Shown in pieces: positions 52,375 through 64,000 of a stretch of DNA of 64,000 nucleotides. Location of the stretch: the NCBI RefSeq assembly GCF_009914755.1, contig NC_060938.1; one strand, 5' to 3'. Below the pieces are notes generated by a model that worked only from the letters and a program-made list of their open reading frames with translations, ran no database searches and had not been told where the DNA came from. The translations under genes were made by a program, and so were the position numbers. Origin of the DNA: the human T2T-CHM13v2.0 reference genome, Homo sapiens. Position 1 is the first letter of the stretch, and each line of letters begins with the position of its first letter.

Positions 52375-55616
<3,242 letters not shown>

Positions 55617-57531
55617 TGTTTTGATAGACTCTGACAATCTCTATCTTTGAATTGGTACATTCATACCATTAGCATTCAAAGTGATTATTGATATCATTGG
55701 ATTAATATCTACTATATTTGTTACTGTTTTCTATTCATTCTCCTCAGTCTCCATTCTTTTGTCTACCACTCTTTTTCTGCCTTTTGCAGTTTTCATTGAT
55801 GATTTTAGATGACTACATTTTCCCTGTCTTTCTTAGCATGTCCTTCTCTTTTTAAAACTTTTTTTTAAGTAGTTGCCACAGAATTTGCAATATACATTTA
55901 CAACCAATTCAAGTCCACTTTCAAATAACACTATCCCACTATCCCACGAATAAGACTACCTGCTTAACAAAACACCTAATTCCTCAGTAACATTTACAAC
56001 AAATTCAAGTCCACTTTCAAATAACACTATCCCACTATCCCACAAATAAGACTACCTGCTTAACAAAGAACACACCTAATTCCTCAATATACATTTACAA
56101 CCAATTCAAGTCCACTTTCAGATAACACTATCCCACTTCATGGGTGACTACCTGCTTAACAAAGAAAACACCTGATTCCTCCCTCCCATCCTTCCATTCC
56201 ATTCCTTGTATTATTGTTCCTTATTTCACTTGTGTATAAGCACACATAATCTATCTGTGTGTATTTATTATTATCTACAAACTTATTGGTCAGATCAATT
56301 ATGAATAAATACATGTTTTTATTGTACCACAATTCCTCCCTCCCATCCTTCCATTCCATTCCTTGTATTAGTGTCACTCATTTCAATTGTGTATAAGCAT
56401 ACATAATCTATCTGTGTGTATTTGTTATTGTCTATGAACTTCTTGGTCAGATCAATTAAGAATAAATACATAGGTTTTTATTGTACCACAATTCTTTAAT
56501 GCTCTTTTTAAAAAAATGTTGATCCAGGTTTCAGTTATATATCTTTTGTTTCCCTCTAAAGAATTTCATTTAACATTTCTTGCAAGACAGGTCTCCTGGC
56601 AACAAGTTTCTTGAATTTGTATTTTTCTGAGGAAGGCCTTAATTCTCCTTCACTTTTGAAGGGTGGTTTCAGTGGGTACAGAAACTTAGGTTGGTGGGTT
56701 TTTTTCTGTCAACATTTTGAATTTTTCATTTCACTGTCTTCTTGCTTTCACAGTTTCTGCAATGTTGAATGCAGTTCTTATCTTTGTGTCTCTGTAGGTA
56801 AGGTGTTTTCTGCCCCACCTCTGGTTTCTTTCAGAGTTTTCCTTTATCTTTTATTTCATATAGTTTGAAAATTATATGTCCAAGTGTAGGTTGTTGGCAT
56901 TTATTCTGCCTGGTGGTCTCTGAGCTTCCTGGATCTTTGGTTTGGTGTCTGACATTAATACTGGAAGTTCTCAGACATGGTTGTTGCAGAACTTTCTTCT
57001 ATTTTTTCTCCTCCTGGTATTCTCATTACTCTGTTGCACCTTTTGTAGTTGTCCCACAGTCTTGGATATCATCTTCTGTTCTTTTCAGTGTTTCTTTTCT
57101 TTAGTTTTTGAAGTTTCTGATGATAAATCCTCAAGCTCAGAGATTCTTTACTCAGCTGAGTCCAGTCTACTAATAAGCCATCAGAGGTATTCTTCAGTTA
57201 TTTACCACATTTTTTACCACTACATTATGTTGAAGGTTCTTACGATGTCTGTCTTTCTGATTACATTACCCATCTACACTTGAATGCTGTCTACTTCATT
57301 CATTAGACCCTTAGCATATTCTCCAGAGGTTTAAAAAAAATTCCAAAATCATATCTTTGTCTGCTTCTGAAGCTTGCTCTGTTGACACAAATTGTATTTT
57401 TTTCTTTTTTTGTATTTTAGTATGCCTTGCAATTTTTTCCCTTTATTCTCATGCATGAAGCACTCACTAAAGGTGACTGCTGTTAGTATAGCTTTAGTAA
57501 TGCGGTGATGAGGTGACAGGGCAGGTGATGC
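55617..57531 (-). mobile_element. Old L1M (L1MC/M4-like) ORF1 and 5' region, antisense
   Basis: CATTTAACATTTCTTGCAAGACAGGTCT..GGCAACAA; CTTTAGTAATG.GGTG.TGAGGTG. Confidence 0.7.
55890..56495. repeat. Adjacent local tandem duplications: about 100 bp x3 (55890-56180) and about 157 bp x2 (56176-56495)
   Basis: ACATTTACAACCAATTCAAGTCCACTTTCAAATAACACTATCCCACT x3; ATTCCTCCCTCCCATCCTTCCATTCCATTCCTTGTATTA...TTTTTATTGTACCACA x2. Confidence 0.95.
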
Positions 57532-57668
57532 TCTCTTAATCTCTTTAGGCTACTATAACAAAATACTTTAGACTGAGTAATTCATAAACAACAGAGATTA
57601 TTGCTCACAGATCTGGAGGCTGGAAAGTCCAAGACTAAAGGGGCAGAATATTTAGTGTTTGGTGAAGG
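57532..57668 (-). mobile_element. MaLR LTR (MLT1A/MSTD-like) 3' part, running directly into the satellite
   Basis: GGCTACTATAACAAAATAC..AGACTG.GTAATT.ATAAACAACAGA.ATT.TTGCTCACAG.TCTGGAGGCTGG.AAGTCCAAGA. Confidence 0.9.
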
Positions 57669-60600
57669 TCAAACATTCAGACACTCGCAACGACTATAGT
57701 GACAGCAGCAGTCTTCAGGAATCCTATGTGAGGGAAAAACATTCAGACCACAACAGGAGTGCTCGGGAATCCTATGTGAGGGACAAACATTCAGACCCCA
57801 GCAGTAGTGTTGTGGAATCCTATGTGAGGGGAAAACTTTCAAACCCTTGTAGCAGTGTTCTGCAATCTTATGTGAGGGGCAAAAATTCAGAACCTTGTAG
57901 CAGTGTTCTGGAATCCTATATGAGGAACAATCAGACCACAGCAGGAATGTTCTGGAATCCTATGTGAGGGGCAAACATTCAGACCACAGCAGGAGTGTTC
58001 TGGAATCCTATGTGAGGGAAAAACATTCAGACCACAGCAGGAGTGCTCTGTAATCCTATGTGAGGGACAAACATTTCAAAACCTTGTAGCAGTGTGCTGG
58101 GATGTTATGTCAGGGACAGACATTTAGACCCTCGCAGCAGTGTTCTAGAATCCCATCTGCGGGACAAACATTCAGACACTCGCAGCAGTGTTCTGGAATT
58201 CTATGTGAGGGACAGACATTCAAACCCCAACAGCAGTGTTCTAGAATCCTATGTGAGGGACAGACGTTCAGACCCCAGCAGCAGTGTTCTGGAATCCTAT
58301 GTGAGGTACAAACATTCAGACACCAGCAGAAGTGTTCTGGAATCCTATGTGAGGGACAAACATTCAGACCCTCGTAGCACTGTTCAGGAATCCTATGTGA
58401 GGGACAAACATTCAGACCCTCCTAGCAGTGTTCTGGAATCTTATGTGAGGGACAAACATTCAAACCACAGCAGCAGTGTTCTGGAATCCTACGTGAAGGA
58501 CAAACTTTCAGACCACAGCAGGAGAGTTCTGGAATCCTATGTGAGGGACAAACTTTCAGACCAAAGCAGGAGTGTTCTTAAATCCTATATGAAGGACAAA
58601 CATTCAGACCCCAGGAACACTGTTCTGAAATCCTATAAGGGCAAACATTCAGACCCCAACATGAATGTTCTGGAATCCTATGTGAGGGACAAGCATTAAG
58701 ACCATAGCAGGAGTATTCTGGAATCCTATGTGAGGGACAAACATTCAGACCCTTGTAGAAGTGTTCTGGAATCCTATGTGATTAAAAAAACATTGAGACC
58801 ACAGCAGGAGTGCTCTGGAATCCTATGTGAGGGACAAACATTCAGACCCCAGAAGGAGTGTTCTGGAATCCTATGTAAAGGACAAACATTCAGACCCTCG
58901 TAGCAGTGTTCTGGAATCCTATGTGAGGGAAAAACATTCAGAACCTCGTAGCAGTGTTCTGGAATCGTATGTGAGGGACAAACATTCAGACCCTCCCAGC
59001 AGTCTTCTGGAATTCTATGTGAGGGACAGACATTCAAACCCCAGCAGCAGGGTTCTGGAATCCGATGTGAGGGACAGACATTCAGACCCCAGCAGCAGTC
59101 TTCTGGAATCCTATGTGAGGGACAAACTTTCAAACACTCATAGCAGTGTTCTGGAATCCTATGTGAGGTACAAACATTCAGACCCTCATAGCAGTGTTCT
59201 GGAATCCTATGTGAGGTACAAACATTCAGACCCTCATAGCAGTTTTCTGGAATACTATGTGAGGGACAACCATTCAGACCATGGCAGTTCTGAAATGCTA
59301 TGTGAAGGACAAACATTCACACCCTCGTAGCAGTGTTCTGGAATCCTATGTGAAGGACAGACATTTAGACCCTCGAAGCAGTGTTCTGCAGTCTTAAGTG
59401 AGGAACAAAAATTCAGACCCTCGTAACAGTGTTCTGGAATCCTTTTTTGAGGGACAGACATTGAGACCCCAGCAGCAGTGGTCTGGAATACCATGTGAGG
59501 GACAAACATTCACACCCCAGCAACACTGTTCTGTAATCGTATGTGAGGGACAAGCATTCAGACCCCAGCAGCAGTGTTCTGGAATCTTATGTGAGGGACA
59601 AACATTGAGACCCTCGTAGCAGTGTTCTGGAATCCTACGTGAGACACAAACATTCGTACCACAGCAGAAGTGTTCCGGAATCTTATGTGAGGGACAACCA
59701 TTCAGATCACAGCAGGAGTGTTCTGGAATCCTTTGTGAGGGACAACCATTCAGACCACAGCAGGAGTGTTCTGGAATCCTATGTGAGGGACAAATATTCA
59801 GACCTCAGCAGGAGGGTTCTGGAATCCTGTGTGAGGGACCAACATTCAGACCCTCGTAGCAGTGTTCTGGAATGCTATGTGAAAGACAACCATTCAGACT
59901 CTCATAGCAATGTTCTGGAATCCTATGTCAGGGACATTCAGACCCCAGCCGCAGTGTTCTGGAATCCTATGTGACAGACAAACATTCAGACCACAGCAGG
60001 ATCGTTCTGGAATCCTATGTGACAGAAAAACGTTCAGACCATAGCAGTAGTGTTCTGCAATCCAATGTGAGGGACAAACATTCAGAGCCCAGCAGCAGTG
60101 TTCAGGAATCCTATGTGAGGGACCAACAATCAGACCCTCGTAGCAGAGTTCTGAAATCCTATGTGAGGGACAAACATTCAGAACCCAGCTGCAGTGTTCT
60201 GGAATCCTATGTGACAGAAAAACATTCCGACCACAGCAGCAGTGTTCTGGAATCCTATGTACGGTACAAACTTTCAGACCACAGCAGGAGAGTTCTGGAA
60301 TCCTATGTGAGGGACAAACTTTCAGACCCCAGGAGCAGTGTTCTGAAATCCTATGTTAAGGGCAAGCATTTACATCCCAGTGTGAATGTTCTCGAATCCT
60401 AGGTAAGGGACAAACATTCAGACCACAGCAGGAGTGTTCTCGAATCCTATGTGAGGAACAAACATTCAGACCACAGAAGGAGTGTTCTGGAATACAATGT
60501 GAGGGACATTCAGACCCTCTTAGCAGTGTTCTGGAGTCCTATGTGGTGAGCAAACTTTCAGACCACAGCAGGAATGTTCTGGAATCCTATGTGAGGGTCA

Positions 60601-62317
60601 AACATTCCGACCACAGCAGGAGTGTTCTGGAATCCTATGTGAGGGCAAACATTCAGACCCACGTGGCAGTGTTCTGGAATCCTATGTGAGGGACAAATAT
60701 TCAGACCACAGCAGGAGTGCTCTGGAATCCTATGTGAGGGACAAACATTCAGAACCTCGTAGCAGTGTCCTGAAATCTTATGTGAGGGAGAGACATTTAG
60801 ACCCTCGCAGCAGTGTTCTGGTATCCCATGTGAGGGACAAACATTCAGACCCTCCCAGCCATATTCTGGAATTCTATGTGAGGGAAAGACGTTCAAACCC
60901 CAGCAGCAGTGTTCTGGAATCTGATTTGAGGGGCAGACATTCAGACCCCAGCAGCAGTGTTCTGGAATGCTATGTGAAGGACAAACATTCAGACCACGGG
61001 AGCAGTGTTCTAGAATCCTACGTGAAGGACAAACATTAAGACTCTCATAGCAGTGTCCTGGAATCATATGTGAGGAACAACCATTCAGACACCAGCAGAA
61101 GTGTTCTGGAATCCTAGGTGTGGGAAAAACATTCAGAACCTAGTAGCAGTGTTCTGGAATCCTATGTGAGGGACATACATTCAGACCACGGCAGCAGTGT
61201 TCTGGAATGGTATGTGAAGGACAAACATTCAGACCCTTGTAGCAGTGTTCCGGAATTCTATGTGAGGGACAAACATTCAGACTACAGCAGCAGTGTTCTG
61301 GAATCCTATATGACGGACCAACGTTCAGACACTTGCAACAGTGTTCTGGAATACTAGGTGAGGGAGAAATATTCACACCCTTGTAGCAGTGTTCTGGAAT
61401 TCTATGTGACTGACAAACATTCAGACTCCAGCAGCAGTGTTCTGTAATCCTATGTGAGTGACAAACATTCAGACCCCAAGAGCAGTGTTCTGAAATCCTA
61501 TGTTAAGGGAAACATTGAGACCCCAGCATGAATGTTCTGGAATCCTATGTGAGGGACAAACATTCAGACCACGGCAGGAGTATTCTGGAATCCTATGTGA
61601 GGGACAAACATTCAGACTACGGCAGGAGTATTCTGGAATCCTATGTGAGGGACAAACATTCAGACCACGGCAGGAGTATTCTGGAATCCTATGTGAGGAA
61701 CAAACATTTAGACCACAGCAGGAGTGTTCTGGAATCCTATATGAGGGATAAGCATTCAGACCCTCGTAGCAGTGTTCTGGAATCCTATGTGAGGGAGAAG
61801 CATTCAGAGCACAGCAGGAGTGCTCTGAAATCCTATGTTAGGGACAAACATTCAGAACCTCGTAACATTGTTCGGGAAACCTATGTGAGGGACAGACATT
61901 TAGACCCTCGCAGCAGTGTTCTGGAATCCCATGTGAGGGTCAAACATTCAGATCCTCACAGCAGTGTTCTGGAATTCTATGTGAGTGACAAACTTCCAGA
62001 CTCCAGCAGCAGTGTTCTGTATTCCTATGTGAAGGACAAACATTCAGAATCCAGGAGCAGTGTTTTGAAATCATATGTTAAGGGCAAACATACCCTAGCA
62101 TCACTGTTCTAGAATCATATGTGAGGGACAGACATTCAGACCCTCACAGCAGTGTTCTGGAATCCTAGATGGGGGACAAACATTCAGACCCCAGCAGCAG
62201 GCTTCTGGAATCCTATGTGGGGGACAAACATTCAGACAATGGCAGCAGTGTTCTGGAATCCTACGTGAGGGACAAACACTCAGAGCCTTGTAGCAGTGTT
62301 CTGGAATCCTATGTGAG
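57662..62317. repeat. CER 48-bp satellite array, about 97 units
   Basis: Unit GTGAGGGACAAACATTCAGACCACAGCAGGAGTGTTCTGGAATCCTAT with a CCCTCGTAGCAG variant; matches the 48-bp CER (D22Z3) family as I recall it. Confidence 0.93.
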
Positions 62318-62659
62318 TGAGAGTGCCTGGAGCCTACCCAACCTGACGCCCCCAAAGCCCTCACAGGGTCTGACCTCCCAGCATGCACCTGCCTCTCCCT
62401 GAACCCCAACTGCCCACCCTGCCTGTTCCCTGGCCTCCTTCATCCTGTGCAGCCCATAGACTGTGACCATCTCTGCAGCCACTCTGGCTCTTCCTTTACC
62501 TTTGTCCTTTCAGAATCTCTGAGCAGGATCTCCCAGGTCCATCCAAACACGTGCTTTGTCCACTTTTGACTAGGCCCTTGGGCATCACTGGGCTATCCCA
62601 GCTGTCCACAGGGCCTTCAATAATGCACATTGCACCTGGCTTATCCAAGCAGTGCTCAG

Positions 62660-63550
62660 CAGCCCACATTGACCAGGTCCCTGCTGACCAGACCCCACAC
62701 ATCAGGTCCTCCCTGATGACACCCTCACTGATTAGACCCTCATGACCAGGCCCCACTAACAAGGCCCCCACTGCCGGGCACACAATGACAAGGACTCCAC
62801 CGACCAGGACCTTACTGACAAGGCCTCACGGACCAAGTCCTTACTGACAAGTCCTCACTGAGTAGGTCATTATTGACAAGGCCTCACTGATCAGGTTCCA
62901 CTGATCATGACCTCATTCCCTGGCCCCAAAGATGAGGCCCCACTGACCAGGCCTCCAGGGAACAGGTTGCCACTGATCAGGCCCCTAATAACCAGGCCTA
63001 AGGTCACCAGATGCCCCTGACTGGGACCCTAGTGAGTAGACCCCACTGAACTGGCACCAAATGCTGAGATCCCCGCTGACCAGGTCACCCTGTAGACCGG
63101 TGCTACAAAAGTCACCACTGACCAAGTCCTCTCTGACTAGGACACTACAGATTAGGTCCCACTGACAAGGCTGCCCTGACCAGGGCCCCACTGACAAGGG
63201 CCTCACTGATGAGGACACGCCCACCAGGGTCTGCTGACTAGGTTCCATGTGCCCAGTCCTCCACTGAATAGCACCCCTTGACCTGGTCACCAGTGCCCCA
63301 GCCCATGCTGACCAGGCCAGCACTAAGCCCCAGCTGACCAGGTCTCCACTGATCAAGCCCCACAGCCCAGGTTTGCACTGACCAGACACCAAACAACTGG
63401 CAGCCAATAGGTCCCCACTCACCAAAACCCCCACTACTAGACCCCACTAATGAGACCCTCTCTAAGCAGACCTCTGCTGACCACGATCCCACTAAATAGT
63501 CCTCACTGACCTAGGTCCACTGACCAGGCCCACACTGATCAGGCCCCTCC
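62660..63550. repeat. Degenerate 14-15 bp tandem repeat (GNCCYCACTGACCAG)
   Basis: Continuous run of CCCCACTGACCAGG-like units. Confidence 0.85.
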
Positions 63551-63569
63551 TAACCACGCCGGAAATCCA

Positions 63570-64000
63570 AGCGGCAATGACATGTTTCATATGGCAGAAG
63601 TTGGAACAAGACAGAGAGAGGAAAGAGGTTCCACAGCCTTTTAAACTACTAGATCTCATGAGAACTCACTCACTATCAGGAGGATGGCATTAAGGGCTTG
63701 GTGCTTTGCCATTTGTGAAGGATCCACTCCCACCCCTTTATGATTAAAACTTTTTCCACCTAGGCCCCGACTCTAACATTAGGGAGTGTACTTTCACATG
63801 AGTTTTGGAAGGGGCATAGAGAAAAACCGTATTATTCTGTCCCTGACCCCACAAATCTCATGTCCTTCTCACATTGCAAGATACAGTCATGCCTTGCCAG
63901 CAGTCTCCCAAAGTCTTAACTCATTTCAGCATTAACTCAAAGTTACAAAGTCCAAAGTCTCATCTGGGTCAAGGCTACATTCTCTTTTGCCTACGAGTCT
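63570..64000 (-). mobile_element. MST-type MaLR LTR (to ~63833) plus internal sequence
   Basis: AGATCTCATGAGAACTCACTCACTATCA; LTR/internal junction then CAAAGTCTTAACTCATTTCAGCATTAACTCAAA. Confidence 0.88.

What the first reader, a model, noticed from the sequence alone, without database searches (positions are those of the whole stretch)
57480..62340. CER satellite unit looks like a MaLR LTR end fused to L1 flank; the array edge may preserve the satellite's birth junction
Seen in the sequence: the array starts with no spacer inside an antisense MaLR LTR (57532-57668), which sits in an old antisense L1M. From recalled consensi: the reverse complement of half the unit, TGCTGTGGTCTGAATGTTTGTCCC, nearly equals the 5' terminus of MLT1A/MSTD LTRs (TGCTATGGTCTGAATGTTTGTGTCCC). 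That is the end missing from the adjacent fragment, in the same orientation. The other half, GCAGTGTTCTGGAATCCTATG, resembles the L1M sequence I expect right after the left flank (...GGGGAAGCGTTCTATAGTCCTATG; 16/21 by eye). Inference: an LTR inserted in L1M lost its middle at GTGAGGG/GAGGGAC microhomology, then the 48 bp spanning the LTR end and L1 flank was tandemly amplified. I do not know whether this origin has been published.
Basis: partly seen in the sequence, partly recalled or inferred. Interest (0 to 1): 0.85.

Follow-up and report, generated by a model that had tools for sequence, protein, structure and literature searches.

The report
Birthplace of the human CER satellite
The 48-base CER satellite that sits beside the ribosomal gene clusters on human acrocentric chromosomes arose by tandem copying of the spot where an old retroviral-like LTR had inserted into an older L1 element, and the flanks of that spot still frame some arrays.

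Summary

- **Array.** Window 57669-62317 holds about 96 copies of a 48-bp unit. It abuts the 3' 137 bp of an antisense LTR (57532-57668) that lies in an antisense L1.
- **LTR half of the unit.** In 27 of 29 unrelated genomic copies of this LTR, the best match of the CER unit falls on the LTR's 5' terminus. That is the end missing here, in the same orientation.
- **L1 half of the unit.** After the LTR-like end comes 5 bp, the length of a target-site duplication. Then come 16 bp that match, in exact register, what 32 unrelated L1 copies carry just past the insertion point. The match is 15 of 21; by chance that level is reached at 3.6e-5 of positions.
- **Decisive result.** The same left junction occurs at 37 places in the genome. 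At two of them (chr22:9.15 Mb, chr14:4.55 Mb) the far end of the array runs in register into the rest of the same L1, collinear for about 600 bp (E 2e-31, 5e-34).
- **This window's copy.** It is a recent duplicate, and its right edge is a breakpoint into an unrelated duplicon.
- **Open points.** Whether the LTR deletion came before amplification is unresolved. Subfamily names could not be tested.
- **Literature.** Seven full-text searches found no paper on this origin.

The parts
56565..56708 (-). Remnant of the L1 ORF1 C-terminal (dsRBD-like) domain. It shows that the flanking old repeat is an antisense LINE-1.
   Evidence: Pfam PF17490 Tnp_22_dsRBD, E 1.3e-4, 22.4 bits (cut-off 22.2), residues 231-278 of the minus-strand read-through from 57398. 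Coordinates were computed from those residues.
56938..57531 (-). Left part of the old L1 (L1M-type by recall), ending at the LTR insertion point.
   Evidence: Aligns at 69-72% to three unrelated copies on chr2, chr5 and chrX. In a multiple alignment with 21 L1 copies it ends where they continue with the sequence matched by the CER unit.
57527..57531 (.). Left copy of the presumed 5-bp target-site duplication: GATGC here, GACGC at chr22:9.15 Mb.
   Evidence: These are the last 5 bases before the LTR. The L1 majority at this place is GAAGC. Units carry GCAGT or GGAGT at the matching place. The flank-proximal last units read GCCGT (chr14:4.55 Mb) and GCTGT (chr22:9.15 Mb).
57532..57668 (-). 3' 137 bp of a solo LTR (MaLR, MLT1-type by recall), antisense. 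Its 5' side, about 219 bp, is missing.
   Evidence: 82-84% identity to LTR copies on chr10, chr22 and chr16 over exactly this span. Full copies are 344-368 bp.
57669..57729 (-). First, irregular CER unit: an LTR-terminus-like start, an extra 18 bp, then the L1-like part. All 12 junction copies compared (the window and 11 paralogs) share it.
   Evidence: The junction reads GGTGAAGGT|CAAACATTCAGAC. Unrelated LTR copies read GGTGAGGGC or AGTGAAGGC at this place.
57669..62317 (-). CER satellite array, about 96 units of 48 bp. On the plus strand each unit is the LTR 5' end (antisense), then 5 bp, then about 16 bp of L1.
62318..62640 (+). Right flank. It is not L1 but a piece of another duplicon joined to the array at a breakpoint.
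   Evidence: 29 places, the window included, share this CER-to-flank junction. At 11 other places (chr20, chr9, chr18, chr13) the homology starts at window 62318 (10 places) or 62326 (1 place). At the 6 of these that were fetched it runs on leftwards into mutually homologous non-CER sequence.

Best explanation
CER was born in place from a transposon insertion junction.

1. A solo LTR, about 357 bp with TG...CA ends, inserted antisense into an old antisense L1 and made a 5-bp target-site duplication.
2. A stretch of about 48 bp spanning three things was duplicated in tandem: the last 20-28 bp of the LTR's 5' end, the right-hand target-site copy, and the next 16 bp or so of L1.
3. That duplication grew into an array by unequal exchange or slippage.
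4. The middle of the LTR (about 200 bp) was lost between an internal GTGAGGG motif and the terminal region, before or after the first duplication. The LTR's 3' 137 bp now touch the array directly.
5. The locus was then copied by segmental duplication to at least 37 places: chr13, 14, 15, 21, 22, Y, 1, 3, 4 and 9. These include blocks of 55-74 kb on the short arms of chr13 and chr14.
6. In one lineage, to which this window belongs, the array was truncated and joined to an unrelated duplicon.

Shown: the homologies, the register, the shared junction, and L1 on both sides of two arrays.
Inferred: the mechanism of the first duplication, the order of deletion and duplication, and the date.
For: - **LTR part.** The best match of the CER dimer lies on the LTR 5' terminus in 27 of 29 unrelated copies. 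Up to 24 of 26 positions are identical (median 18 over the 28 copies that have the terminus). A 21-nt string at the end of an unrelated LTR on chr14:47.19 Mb occurs exactly in the window's array.
- **L1 part.** At the register fixed by LTR end plus 5 bp, 32 unrelated L1 copies match the CER 21-mer at a mean of 12.75 of 21 (range 4-16). The null over 195,204 other 21-mers of the same loci is 5.3 +/- 2.0. The majority sequence gives 15 of 21, a level reached by 3.6e-5 of the null.
- **Shared junction.** 37 places carry flank, LTR fragment and first units together, at 88-100% identity. The window and the 11 paralogs compared have the same irregular first unit.
- **L1 on the far side.** At chr22:9.15 Mb the last unit ends ...GCTGT GTTCTGGAAGGCTATG and goes straight on with ATTGGATCT. 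The next 600 bp or so are collinear with L1 copies from 54 bp past the insertion point (66%, E 2e-31; at least 20 of 32 L1 copies hit). The chr14:4.55 Mb array has the same end (E 5e-34; 87% to the chr22 end).
- **The flank is L1.** Pfam ORF1 domain hit.
- **5-bp duplications in this LTR family.** 3 of 29 copies keep an exact 5-bp repeat outside TG...CA ends, against 1 with 4 bp and none with 6 bp.
Against: - The target-site copies agree poorly: GATGC or GACGC on the left, against GCAGT or GGAGT in units and GCCGT or GCTGT in the last units. That is 2-3 of 5 identical.
- The L1-like 21-mer differs from the L1 majority at 6 places, and single L1 copies match as low as 4 of 21 where they carry indels.
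- The 6-7 bases of the unit between the L1 part and the LTR part (TGAGGG) cannot be assigned. They fit both the LTR-internal motif and the sub-terminal G-run.
- The first unit has an unexplained extra 18 bp.
- The L1 to the right of the two complete arrays lacks about 27 bp relative to other copies.
- Right ends of the other arrays examined are not L1: the window group, chr13 and chr14 large blocks, and chr3:75.8 Mb.
- CER arrays on chr2 and chr9 were found for which no such junction was listed. Their edges were not read.
- No outgroup genome was available, so an unamplified state has not been seen.
Confidence: 0.9

Rival explanations
1. Same origin, different order of events. The array grew first from an intact LTR end plus L1 flank. 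The LTR middle and some units were lost later, by unequal recombination between the LTR-internal GTGAGGG and the same motif in a unit. The array edge would then be a secondary junction, not the founder copy.
For: Unrelated LTR copies carry a sub-terminal G-run before the terminal ACACAAAC, for example ATTTGAGGGGGACACAAAC in L027. That could itself have given the unit's GAGGGACAAAC. The left-edge copy reads GGTGAAGGT rather than the unit's TGTGAGGGA in the window and all 11 paralogs compared.
Against: It needs a 2-bp loss (CA) inside the unit, which the deletion-first order explains without an extra event. The 7-mer GTGAGGG is exact between LTR-internal sequence and unit. Nothing here decides between the two orders.
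Confidence: 0.4
2. The unit derives from the LTR alone, from internal pieces such as the GTTCTGGA and GTGAGGG motifs plus the terminus. The likeness to L1 would then be chance.
For: The LTR holds an exact 8-mer GTTCTGGA about 275 bp from its 5' end. This was the best hit of the unit in 1 of 29 copies. GTGAGGG is also LTR-internal.
Against: - It needs two more deletions and a gap.
- The L1 match is ungapped, at a register fixed in advance, and reached by 3.6e-5 of null positions.
- The last unit of two arrays runs without a break into 600 bp of collinear L1.
Confidence: 0.03
3. Chance or secondary association. CER arose elsewhere, and an array came to lie next to an LTR by recombination through the short LTR-like stretch in its unit.
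For: Most right ends examined are rearrangement breakpoints. These regions are heavily reshuffled, and arrays exist for which no junction was listed.
Against: This would have to place an array exactly at the LTR insertion point of one L1. Both L1 halves would have to stay intact and in register, and the unit would by chance have to resemble LTR end plus 5 bp plus L1 continuation.
Confidence: 0.03

Closest known systems
CER satellite (D22Z3), the 48-bp repeat distal to the rDNA distal junction on all five acrocentrics and near the centromeres of chr14 and chr22 (PMC3847771, PMC6942050, PMC2588610; passages read)
   Same: It has the same period (48 bp) and the same chromosomal setting. An exact 32-mer from the window's array recurs 325 times, including in long runs on the short arms of chr13 and chr14.
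   Different: The passages I read describe where CER lies and what has inserted into it (HERV-K111). None says what it derives from. The Repbase or Dfam consensus was not on hand for a direct comparison.
MER20-derived tandem array in Warburton et al. 2008 (PMC2588610, Discussion passage read)
   Same: The array begins with a copy of the parent transposon in the same orientation. The unit is a tandem expansion of the transposon's end.
   Different: There the unit lies within one element. Here the unit spans an insertion junction: the end of one element, the target-site duplication, and the flank belonging to a second element.
MaLR 'LTR arrays', the 3.5-kb megasatellite of MSTA and THE1 pieces (PMC2588610, passages read)
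   Same: Tandem amplification of MaLR-class sequence, spread with segmental duplications to pericentromeres and acrocentric arms.
   Different: Those units are 3.5 kb and hold whole LTRs and internal parts. The CER unit holds only 20-28 bp of LTR end.
SST1, called a tandemly arrayed TE-derived satellite in the T2T repeat preprint (10.1101/2021.07.12.451456, one passage read)
   Same: A human satellite traced to a transposable element.
   Different: A different element and a much longer unit. That preprint's main text does not contain the word CER.

Membership tests
CER satellite | Tandem array with a 48-bp period | tested here: met
   Period 48, 96.6 copies, 80% matches.
CER satellite | The same repeat forms the large blocks on acrocentric short arms | tested here: met
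   An exact 32-mer of the window array occurs 325 times genome-wide (control 0), with runs at chr13:5.37-5.42 Mb and chr14:1.68-1.75 Mb. Sampled 100-120-bp stretches there align to the unit. That these are the blocks distal to the rDNA junction of the literature is inferred from position.
CER satellite | Match to the curated Repbase or Dfam CER consensus | not testable with these tools
No repeat library was on hand.
Transposon-derived satellite born in place | Unit homologous to transposon sequence | tested here: met
   LTR terminus in 27 of 29 copies. L1 continuation 15 of 21 at a fixed register.
Transposon-derived satellite born in place | Parent element adjacent to the array, same orientation, lacking the part found in the unit | tested here: met
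   The LTR 3' 137 bp abut the array at 57668/57669.
Transposon-derived satellite born in place | Both flanks of the array are contiguous parts of the host sequence | tested here: met
   Met at chr22:9.15 Mb and chr14:4.55 Mb. Not met in the window itself, whose right flank is an unrelated duplicon.
Transposon-derived satellite born in place | Unamplified orthologue in an outgroup | not testable with these tools
   No other primate genome was held.
MaLR LTR (MLT1-type) | Dispersed solo LTR of about 350-370 bp with TG...CA ends and 5-bp target-site duplications | tested here: met
   There were 6558 first-look candidates, and the 40 scored copies are 75-80% alike. Copies are 344-368 bp long. Exact 5-bp repeats outside TG...CA ends survive in 3 of 29 copies.
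MaLR LTR (MLT1-type) | Assignment to MaLR and to a subfamily (MLT1A, MSTD) by a curated model | not testable with these tools
No Dfam model was available.
LINE-1 (old, L1M-type) | L1 protein-coding remnant in the flanking repeat | tested here: met
   Tnp_22_dsRBD, E 1.3e-4, 22.4 bits against a cut-off of 22.2, on the minus strand about 830-970 bp left of the insertion point. This is a borderline score.
LINE-1 (old, L1M-type) | Subfamily (L1MC, L1M4 and the like) | not testable with these tools
   No repeat library. Copies are 69-84% alike, which fits an old family.

The most novel reading that the evidence does not exclude
Every CER array in the human genome, including the large blocks next to the nucleolus organisers on all five acrocentrics, descends from one tandem duplication of about 48 bp. 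That duplication spanned the end of a single LTR, its target-site duplication and the adjoining L1. The complete birth locus (L1 left, LTR stump, array, L1 right) still exists at chr22:9.15 Mb and chr14:4.55 Mb. The deepest split among junction copies (K2P about 0.12) suggests the array predates the apes. Old World monkeys should then carry it, and a more distant primate should show the unamplified L1-LTR-L1 site. This origin appears not to be in print.
Probability: 0.7. Interest if true: 0.65.

Novelty: new member of a known kind. Interest (0 to 1): 0.6.

Why it matters
- **A single origin.** CER flanks the rDNA distal junctions on all five human acrocentric chromosomes. It hosts the HERV-K111 family and is used as a landmark in work on nucleolus organisers and acrocentric exchange. 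Knowing that the unit is an LTR-end, target-site and L1 junction gives the family one datable origin and a fixed polarity.
- **A marker for duplications.** The L1-LTR boundary, present 37 times, can be used to order the segmental duplications of the acrocentric short arms and pericentromeres.
- **A clean example.** It shows a satellite seeded by a stretch that spans two transposons, with the birth locus still readable on both sides.
- **A testable prediction.** It predicts what outgroup primates should show.

It does not point to a cellular function.

Tried and rejected
- **Other copies inside the window.** I looked for other copies of the LTR, the L1 flank or the right flank. A self-comparison found none, so reference copies had to come from the rest of the genome.
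- **Window's right edge as L1.** By eye, AGTGAG..GTGCCT..GGA resembles a stretch of L1 further on, so I suspected the right edge might continue in L1. Rejected. That flank is contiguous with unrelated sequence at 6 fetched loci on chr20, 9, 18 and 13, and has no hit to L1 copies.
- **Right ends of other arrays.** The chr13 and chr14 large blocks and the chr3:75.8 Mb array do not end in the expected L1. The first two end in unrelated sequence. The third ends in a fragment that I recognise by recall as a younger L1.
- **LTR-only origin of the unit.** Considered and set aside (see rivals).
- **An apparent 11-nt identity to one L1 copy.** The copy on chr2 (L042) shares CACAGCAGGAG with the unit. 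The other copies differ there, so it is that copy's private changes.
- **Exact target-site duplications.** They survive in only 3 of 29 LTR copies. That is weak support for the 5-bp rule, which otherwise rests on general knowledge of this class.
- **Second MaLR-like element at 63545-63850.** It looks like another MaLR LTR by eye but has no match to the 29 LTR copies. Left unnamed.
- **Calls that failed.**
I sampled short stretches instead.
  - The first Pfam call failed on stop codons and was repeated with stops read as X.
- **Supplements.** bioRxiv supplements, which may list CER by species for the ape acrocentric preprint, were closed.
Full report
**What is in the window**

Tandem Repeats Finder reports one array at 57703-62317 with period 48, 96.6 copies and 80% matches. 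A 15-mer from the LTR-like half of the unit occurs 81 times at up to 2 mismatches. All hits are on the minus strand between 57669 and 62286, where 0.41 are expected by chance. Nothing else in the 64 kb resembles the array's flanks. Reference copies therefore had to come from the rest of the assembly, which could be searched. The window is chr14:5,642,001-5,706,000 of the assembly the tools call G000.

**The left flank**

A 281-bp query across the boundary (57480-57760) found three LTR-only matches on chr10, chr22 and chr16. They cover window 57530/57544-57668 at 82-84% and stop at 57668.

The chr10 copy is a complete element of 357 bp. Used as a query, it returned 40 scored copies out of 6558 candidates. 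The 29 independent copies I kept are 344-368 bp long. So 57532-57668 is the 3' 137 bp of an antisense solo LTR, and about 219 bp of its 5' side are missing.

The sequence to its left (56938-57531) matches old dispersed copies at 69-72%. It also carries a remnant of the L1 ORF1 C-terminal domain on the minus strand (Pfam Tnp_22_dsRBD, E 1.3e-4, just above the curated cut-off). It is therefore an antisense L1.

**The LTR half of the unit**

I aligned a CER dimer locally against each of the 29 LTR copies with 300 bp of flank on either side.
- The best hit lies on the LTR's 5' terminus in 27 copies. My strict positional window gives 25. Two more sit at the terminus but beyond my estimate of the LTR end.
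- The two misses are a copy that lacks the terminus and an 8-mer hit elsewhere.
- The score beats all 50 shuffled units in 19 of 29 copies. The reverse-complement unit scores 14-21, close to the shuffled means of 15.6-17.0, against 16-39 for the forward unit.
- Individual copies share up to 24 of 26 positions with the unit, with a median of 18 over the 28 copies that have the terminus.
- The terminal 21 nt of an unrelated LTR at chr14:47.19 Mb (ACAAACATTCAGACCACAGCA) occur exactly in the window's array.

This is the end that the neighbouring stump lacks, in the same orientation.

**The L1 half of the unit**

I collected 32 L1 copies that span the insertion point. In a multiple alignment of 21 of them, the window's flank ends where they continue. 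One copy, L057, reads GAAGC ATTCTATAGTCCTATG ATTAGGTCTCAG at that place.

If the LTR made a 5-bp target-site duplication, the sequence after the LTR end should be those 5 bases followed by the continuation. The unit has GCAGT GTTCTGGAATCCTATG at exactly that register.
- At this fixed register the 32 copies match the 21-mer at a mean of 12.75 (range 4-16).
- The null is 5.3 +/- 2.0 over 195,204 other 21-mers of the same loci, both strands.
- The majority sequence matches 15 of 21, a level reached by 3.6e-5 of the null.
- At one dinucleotide the copies show CA, TG and once CG, the pattern of a decayed CpG.
- The 5-bp rule is general knowledge for this class. Here only 3 of 29 LTR copies still show an exact 5-bp repeat outside TG...CA ends.

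**Other arrays**

The boundary (L1 flank, LTR stump, first units) is present at 37 places, the window included, at 88-100% identity. These lie on chr13, 14, 15, 21, 22, Y, 1, 3, 4 and 9. The window and the 11 paralogs I compared have the same junction and the same irregular first unit with 18 extra bases, so the junction predates all these duplications.

The junction bounds small and large arrays alike.
- 29 of the 37 have the window's right flank 1.4-5.1 kb away (positions).
- The copies at chr13:5.369 Mb and chr14:1.682 Mb start blocks that run to about 5.4245 Mb (55 kb) and 1.7559 Mb (74 kb).
- Those two sizes rest on exact 32-mer hits, 100-120-bp samples and the fetched ends. The blocks were sampled, not read through.

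**The decisive result**

The most divergent junction copy, chr22:9.15 Mb (K2P 0.105-0.12 to the other 11 copies compared), heads an array of about 15.4 kb.
- Its last unit reads ...GCTGT GTTCTGGAAGGCTATG and is followed at once by ATTGGATCT.
- From there about 600 bp align collinearly with L1 copies, starting 54 bp past the insertion point (66% identity, E 2e-31).
- At least 20 of the 32 L1 copies hit.
- In a multiple alignment the last unit's L1-like part occupies the same columns as the L1 copies' continuation. Those columns come directly after the ones where the left flanks end. The L1 then goes on after a gap of about 27 bp.

The chr14:4.55 Mb array spans about 25 kb including an inserted L1. 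It ends the same way (...GCCGT GTTCTGGAATGCTATG ATTGGGTTT; E 5e-34 to L1 copies; 87% to the chr22 end).

So at two loci the array sits inside one L1, exactly at the LTR insertion point, with both halves of the L1 in place. I cannot see how an array born elsewhere would arrive in that configuration.

**This window's right edge and others**

The window's right flank starts at 62318. It belongs to another duplicon.
- At 11 places without CER (chr20, chr9, chr18, chr13) the homology begins at window 62318 (10 places) or 62326 (1 place).
- At the 6 of these that I fetched, it continues leftwards into shared non-CER sequence.

The window's array is thus a truncated derivative, and a recent one: K2P 0.004 to the chr21 and chr22 copies and 0.045 to chr14:4.55 Mb. 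The large chr13 and chr14 blocks end in unrelated sequence. The chr3:75.8 Mb array ends in a fragment that I take, by recall, to be a younger L1. CER arrays on chr2:132.5 Mb and at three places on chr9 appeared in the 32-mer search without a listed junction. I did not read their edges.

**Mechanism and order of events**

Shown:
- The unit is LTR end plus 5 bp plus L1 continuation.
- The stump, the array and the L1 halves are collinear.
- The junction is shared.

Inferred:
- A tandem duplication of about 48 bp seeded the array, and unequal exchange enlarged it.

The LTR's middle was lost between its internal GTGAGGG and its terminal region. Three unrelated copies read GGTGAGGGC or AGTGAAGGC at the place of 57660-57668. 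If the deletion came first, the unit (TGAGGGA, then 20 nt of LTR end, then 5, then 16) adds up to 48. The 2-bp difference from LTR termini then needs no extra event. If amplification came first, the edge is a later recombination junction.

**Age**

The deepest distance among junction copies is about 0.12 over 696 aligned columns. At ordinary primate substitution rates (my assumption, 1.2-2e-9 per site per year) that is roughly 30-50 million years. Rates and gene conversion in these regions are uncertain, so this is only a prediction that Old World monkeys may carry CER.

**What is known**

I read passages, not whole texts.
- PMC3847771, PMC6942050, PMC2588610, PMC8997349 and PMC9186530 place CER on the acrocentrics and near the centromeres of chr14 and chr22.
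- PMC3759726 and preprint 10.64898/2026.09.11.751073 treat it as the host of HERV-K111.
- Preprint 10.64898/2025.12.22.696095 lists it among acrocentric satellites.
- The T2T repeat preprint (10.1101/2021.07.12.451456) and the macaque T2T paper (PMC12466775) do not contain the word in their main text.

Seven full-text searches turned up no statement on what CER derives from. Repbase and Dfam entries, subscription journals (including the 1988 description) and bioRxiv supplements were out of reach, so 'unpublished' is probable, not certain.

Transposon-derived satellites are a known kind. The closest parallel I read is the MER20-derived array of Warburton et al. A unit that spans an insertion junction, with the birth locus intact on both sides, is a good new example rather than a new principle.

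Noticed in passing
window about 53855-54295, minus strand: Remnant of a DDE_1 (pogo/Tigger-type) transposase: Pfam PF03184, E 2.9e-14, in the read-through translation.
   Followed up: no
window 55888-56494: Two short tandem arrays, 96 bp x 3 and 157 bp x 2. They lie to the left of the L1 ORF1 remnant, possibly inside the same old L1.
   Followed up: no
window 62640-63560: A degenerate 15/29-bp tandem repeat (unit near CCCACTGACCAGGCC), about 900 bp long, in the right-flank duplicon.
   Followed up: no
window 62318-62640; loci L079-L084: The right flank belongs to a duplicon also present without CER on chr20:30.09 Mb, several places on chr9, chr18:14.50 Mb and chr13:17.96 Mb (88-94%). The CER join lies at a short TGAG-type overlap.
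   Followed up: partly
chr14:5.699/5.847 Mb, chr21:7.497/7.644 Mb, chr22:10.530/10.677 Mb: The junction occurs as inverted pairs about 147 kb apart on three chromosomes, so the window lies in one arm of a large inverted duplication shared by chr14, 21 and 22.
   Followed up: no
chr14:4,528,000-4,531,000 (samples L141-L144): The chr14:4.55 Mb CER array is interrupted by about 3 kb of non-CER sequence with a poly-T junction. By recall this looks like a younger L1 insertion.
   Followed up: no
chr2:132.51 Mb; chr9:42.36-42.39, 47.61-47.64, 77.24-77.25 Mb: CER arrays (exact 32-mer hits) at places where no L1-LTR junction was listed. Their edges were not read.
   Followed up: no
window 63545-63850: By eye this looks like another antisense MaLR-type LTR, but it has no match to the 29 LTR copies used here. 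Not named.
   Followed up: partly
window 57689-57706: The first CER unit carries 18 extra bases (ACGACTATAGTGACAGCA), present with 1-3 substitutions in all 11 other junction copies compared. Their origin is unexplained.
   Followed up: partly
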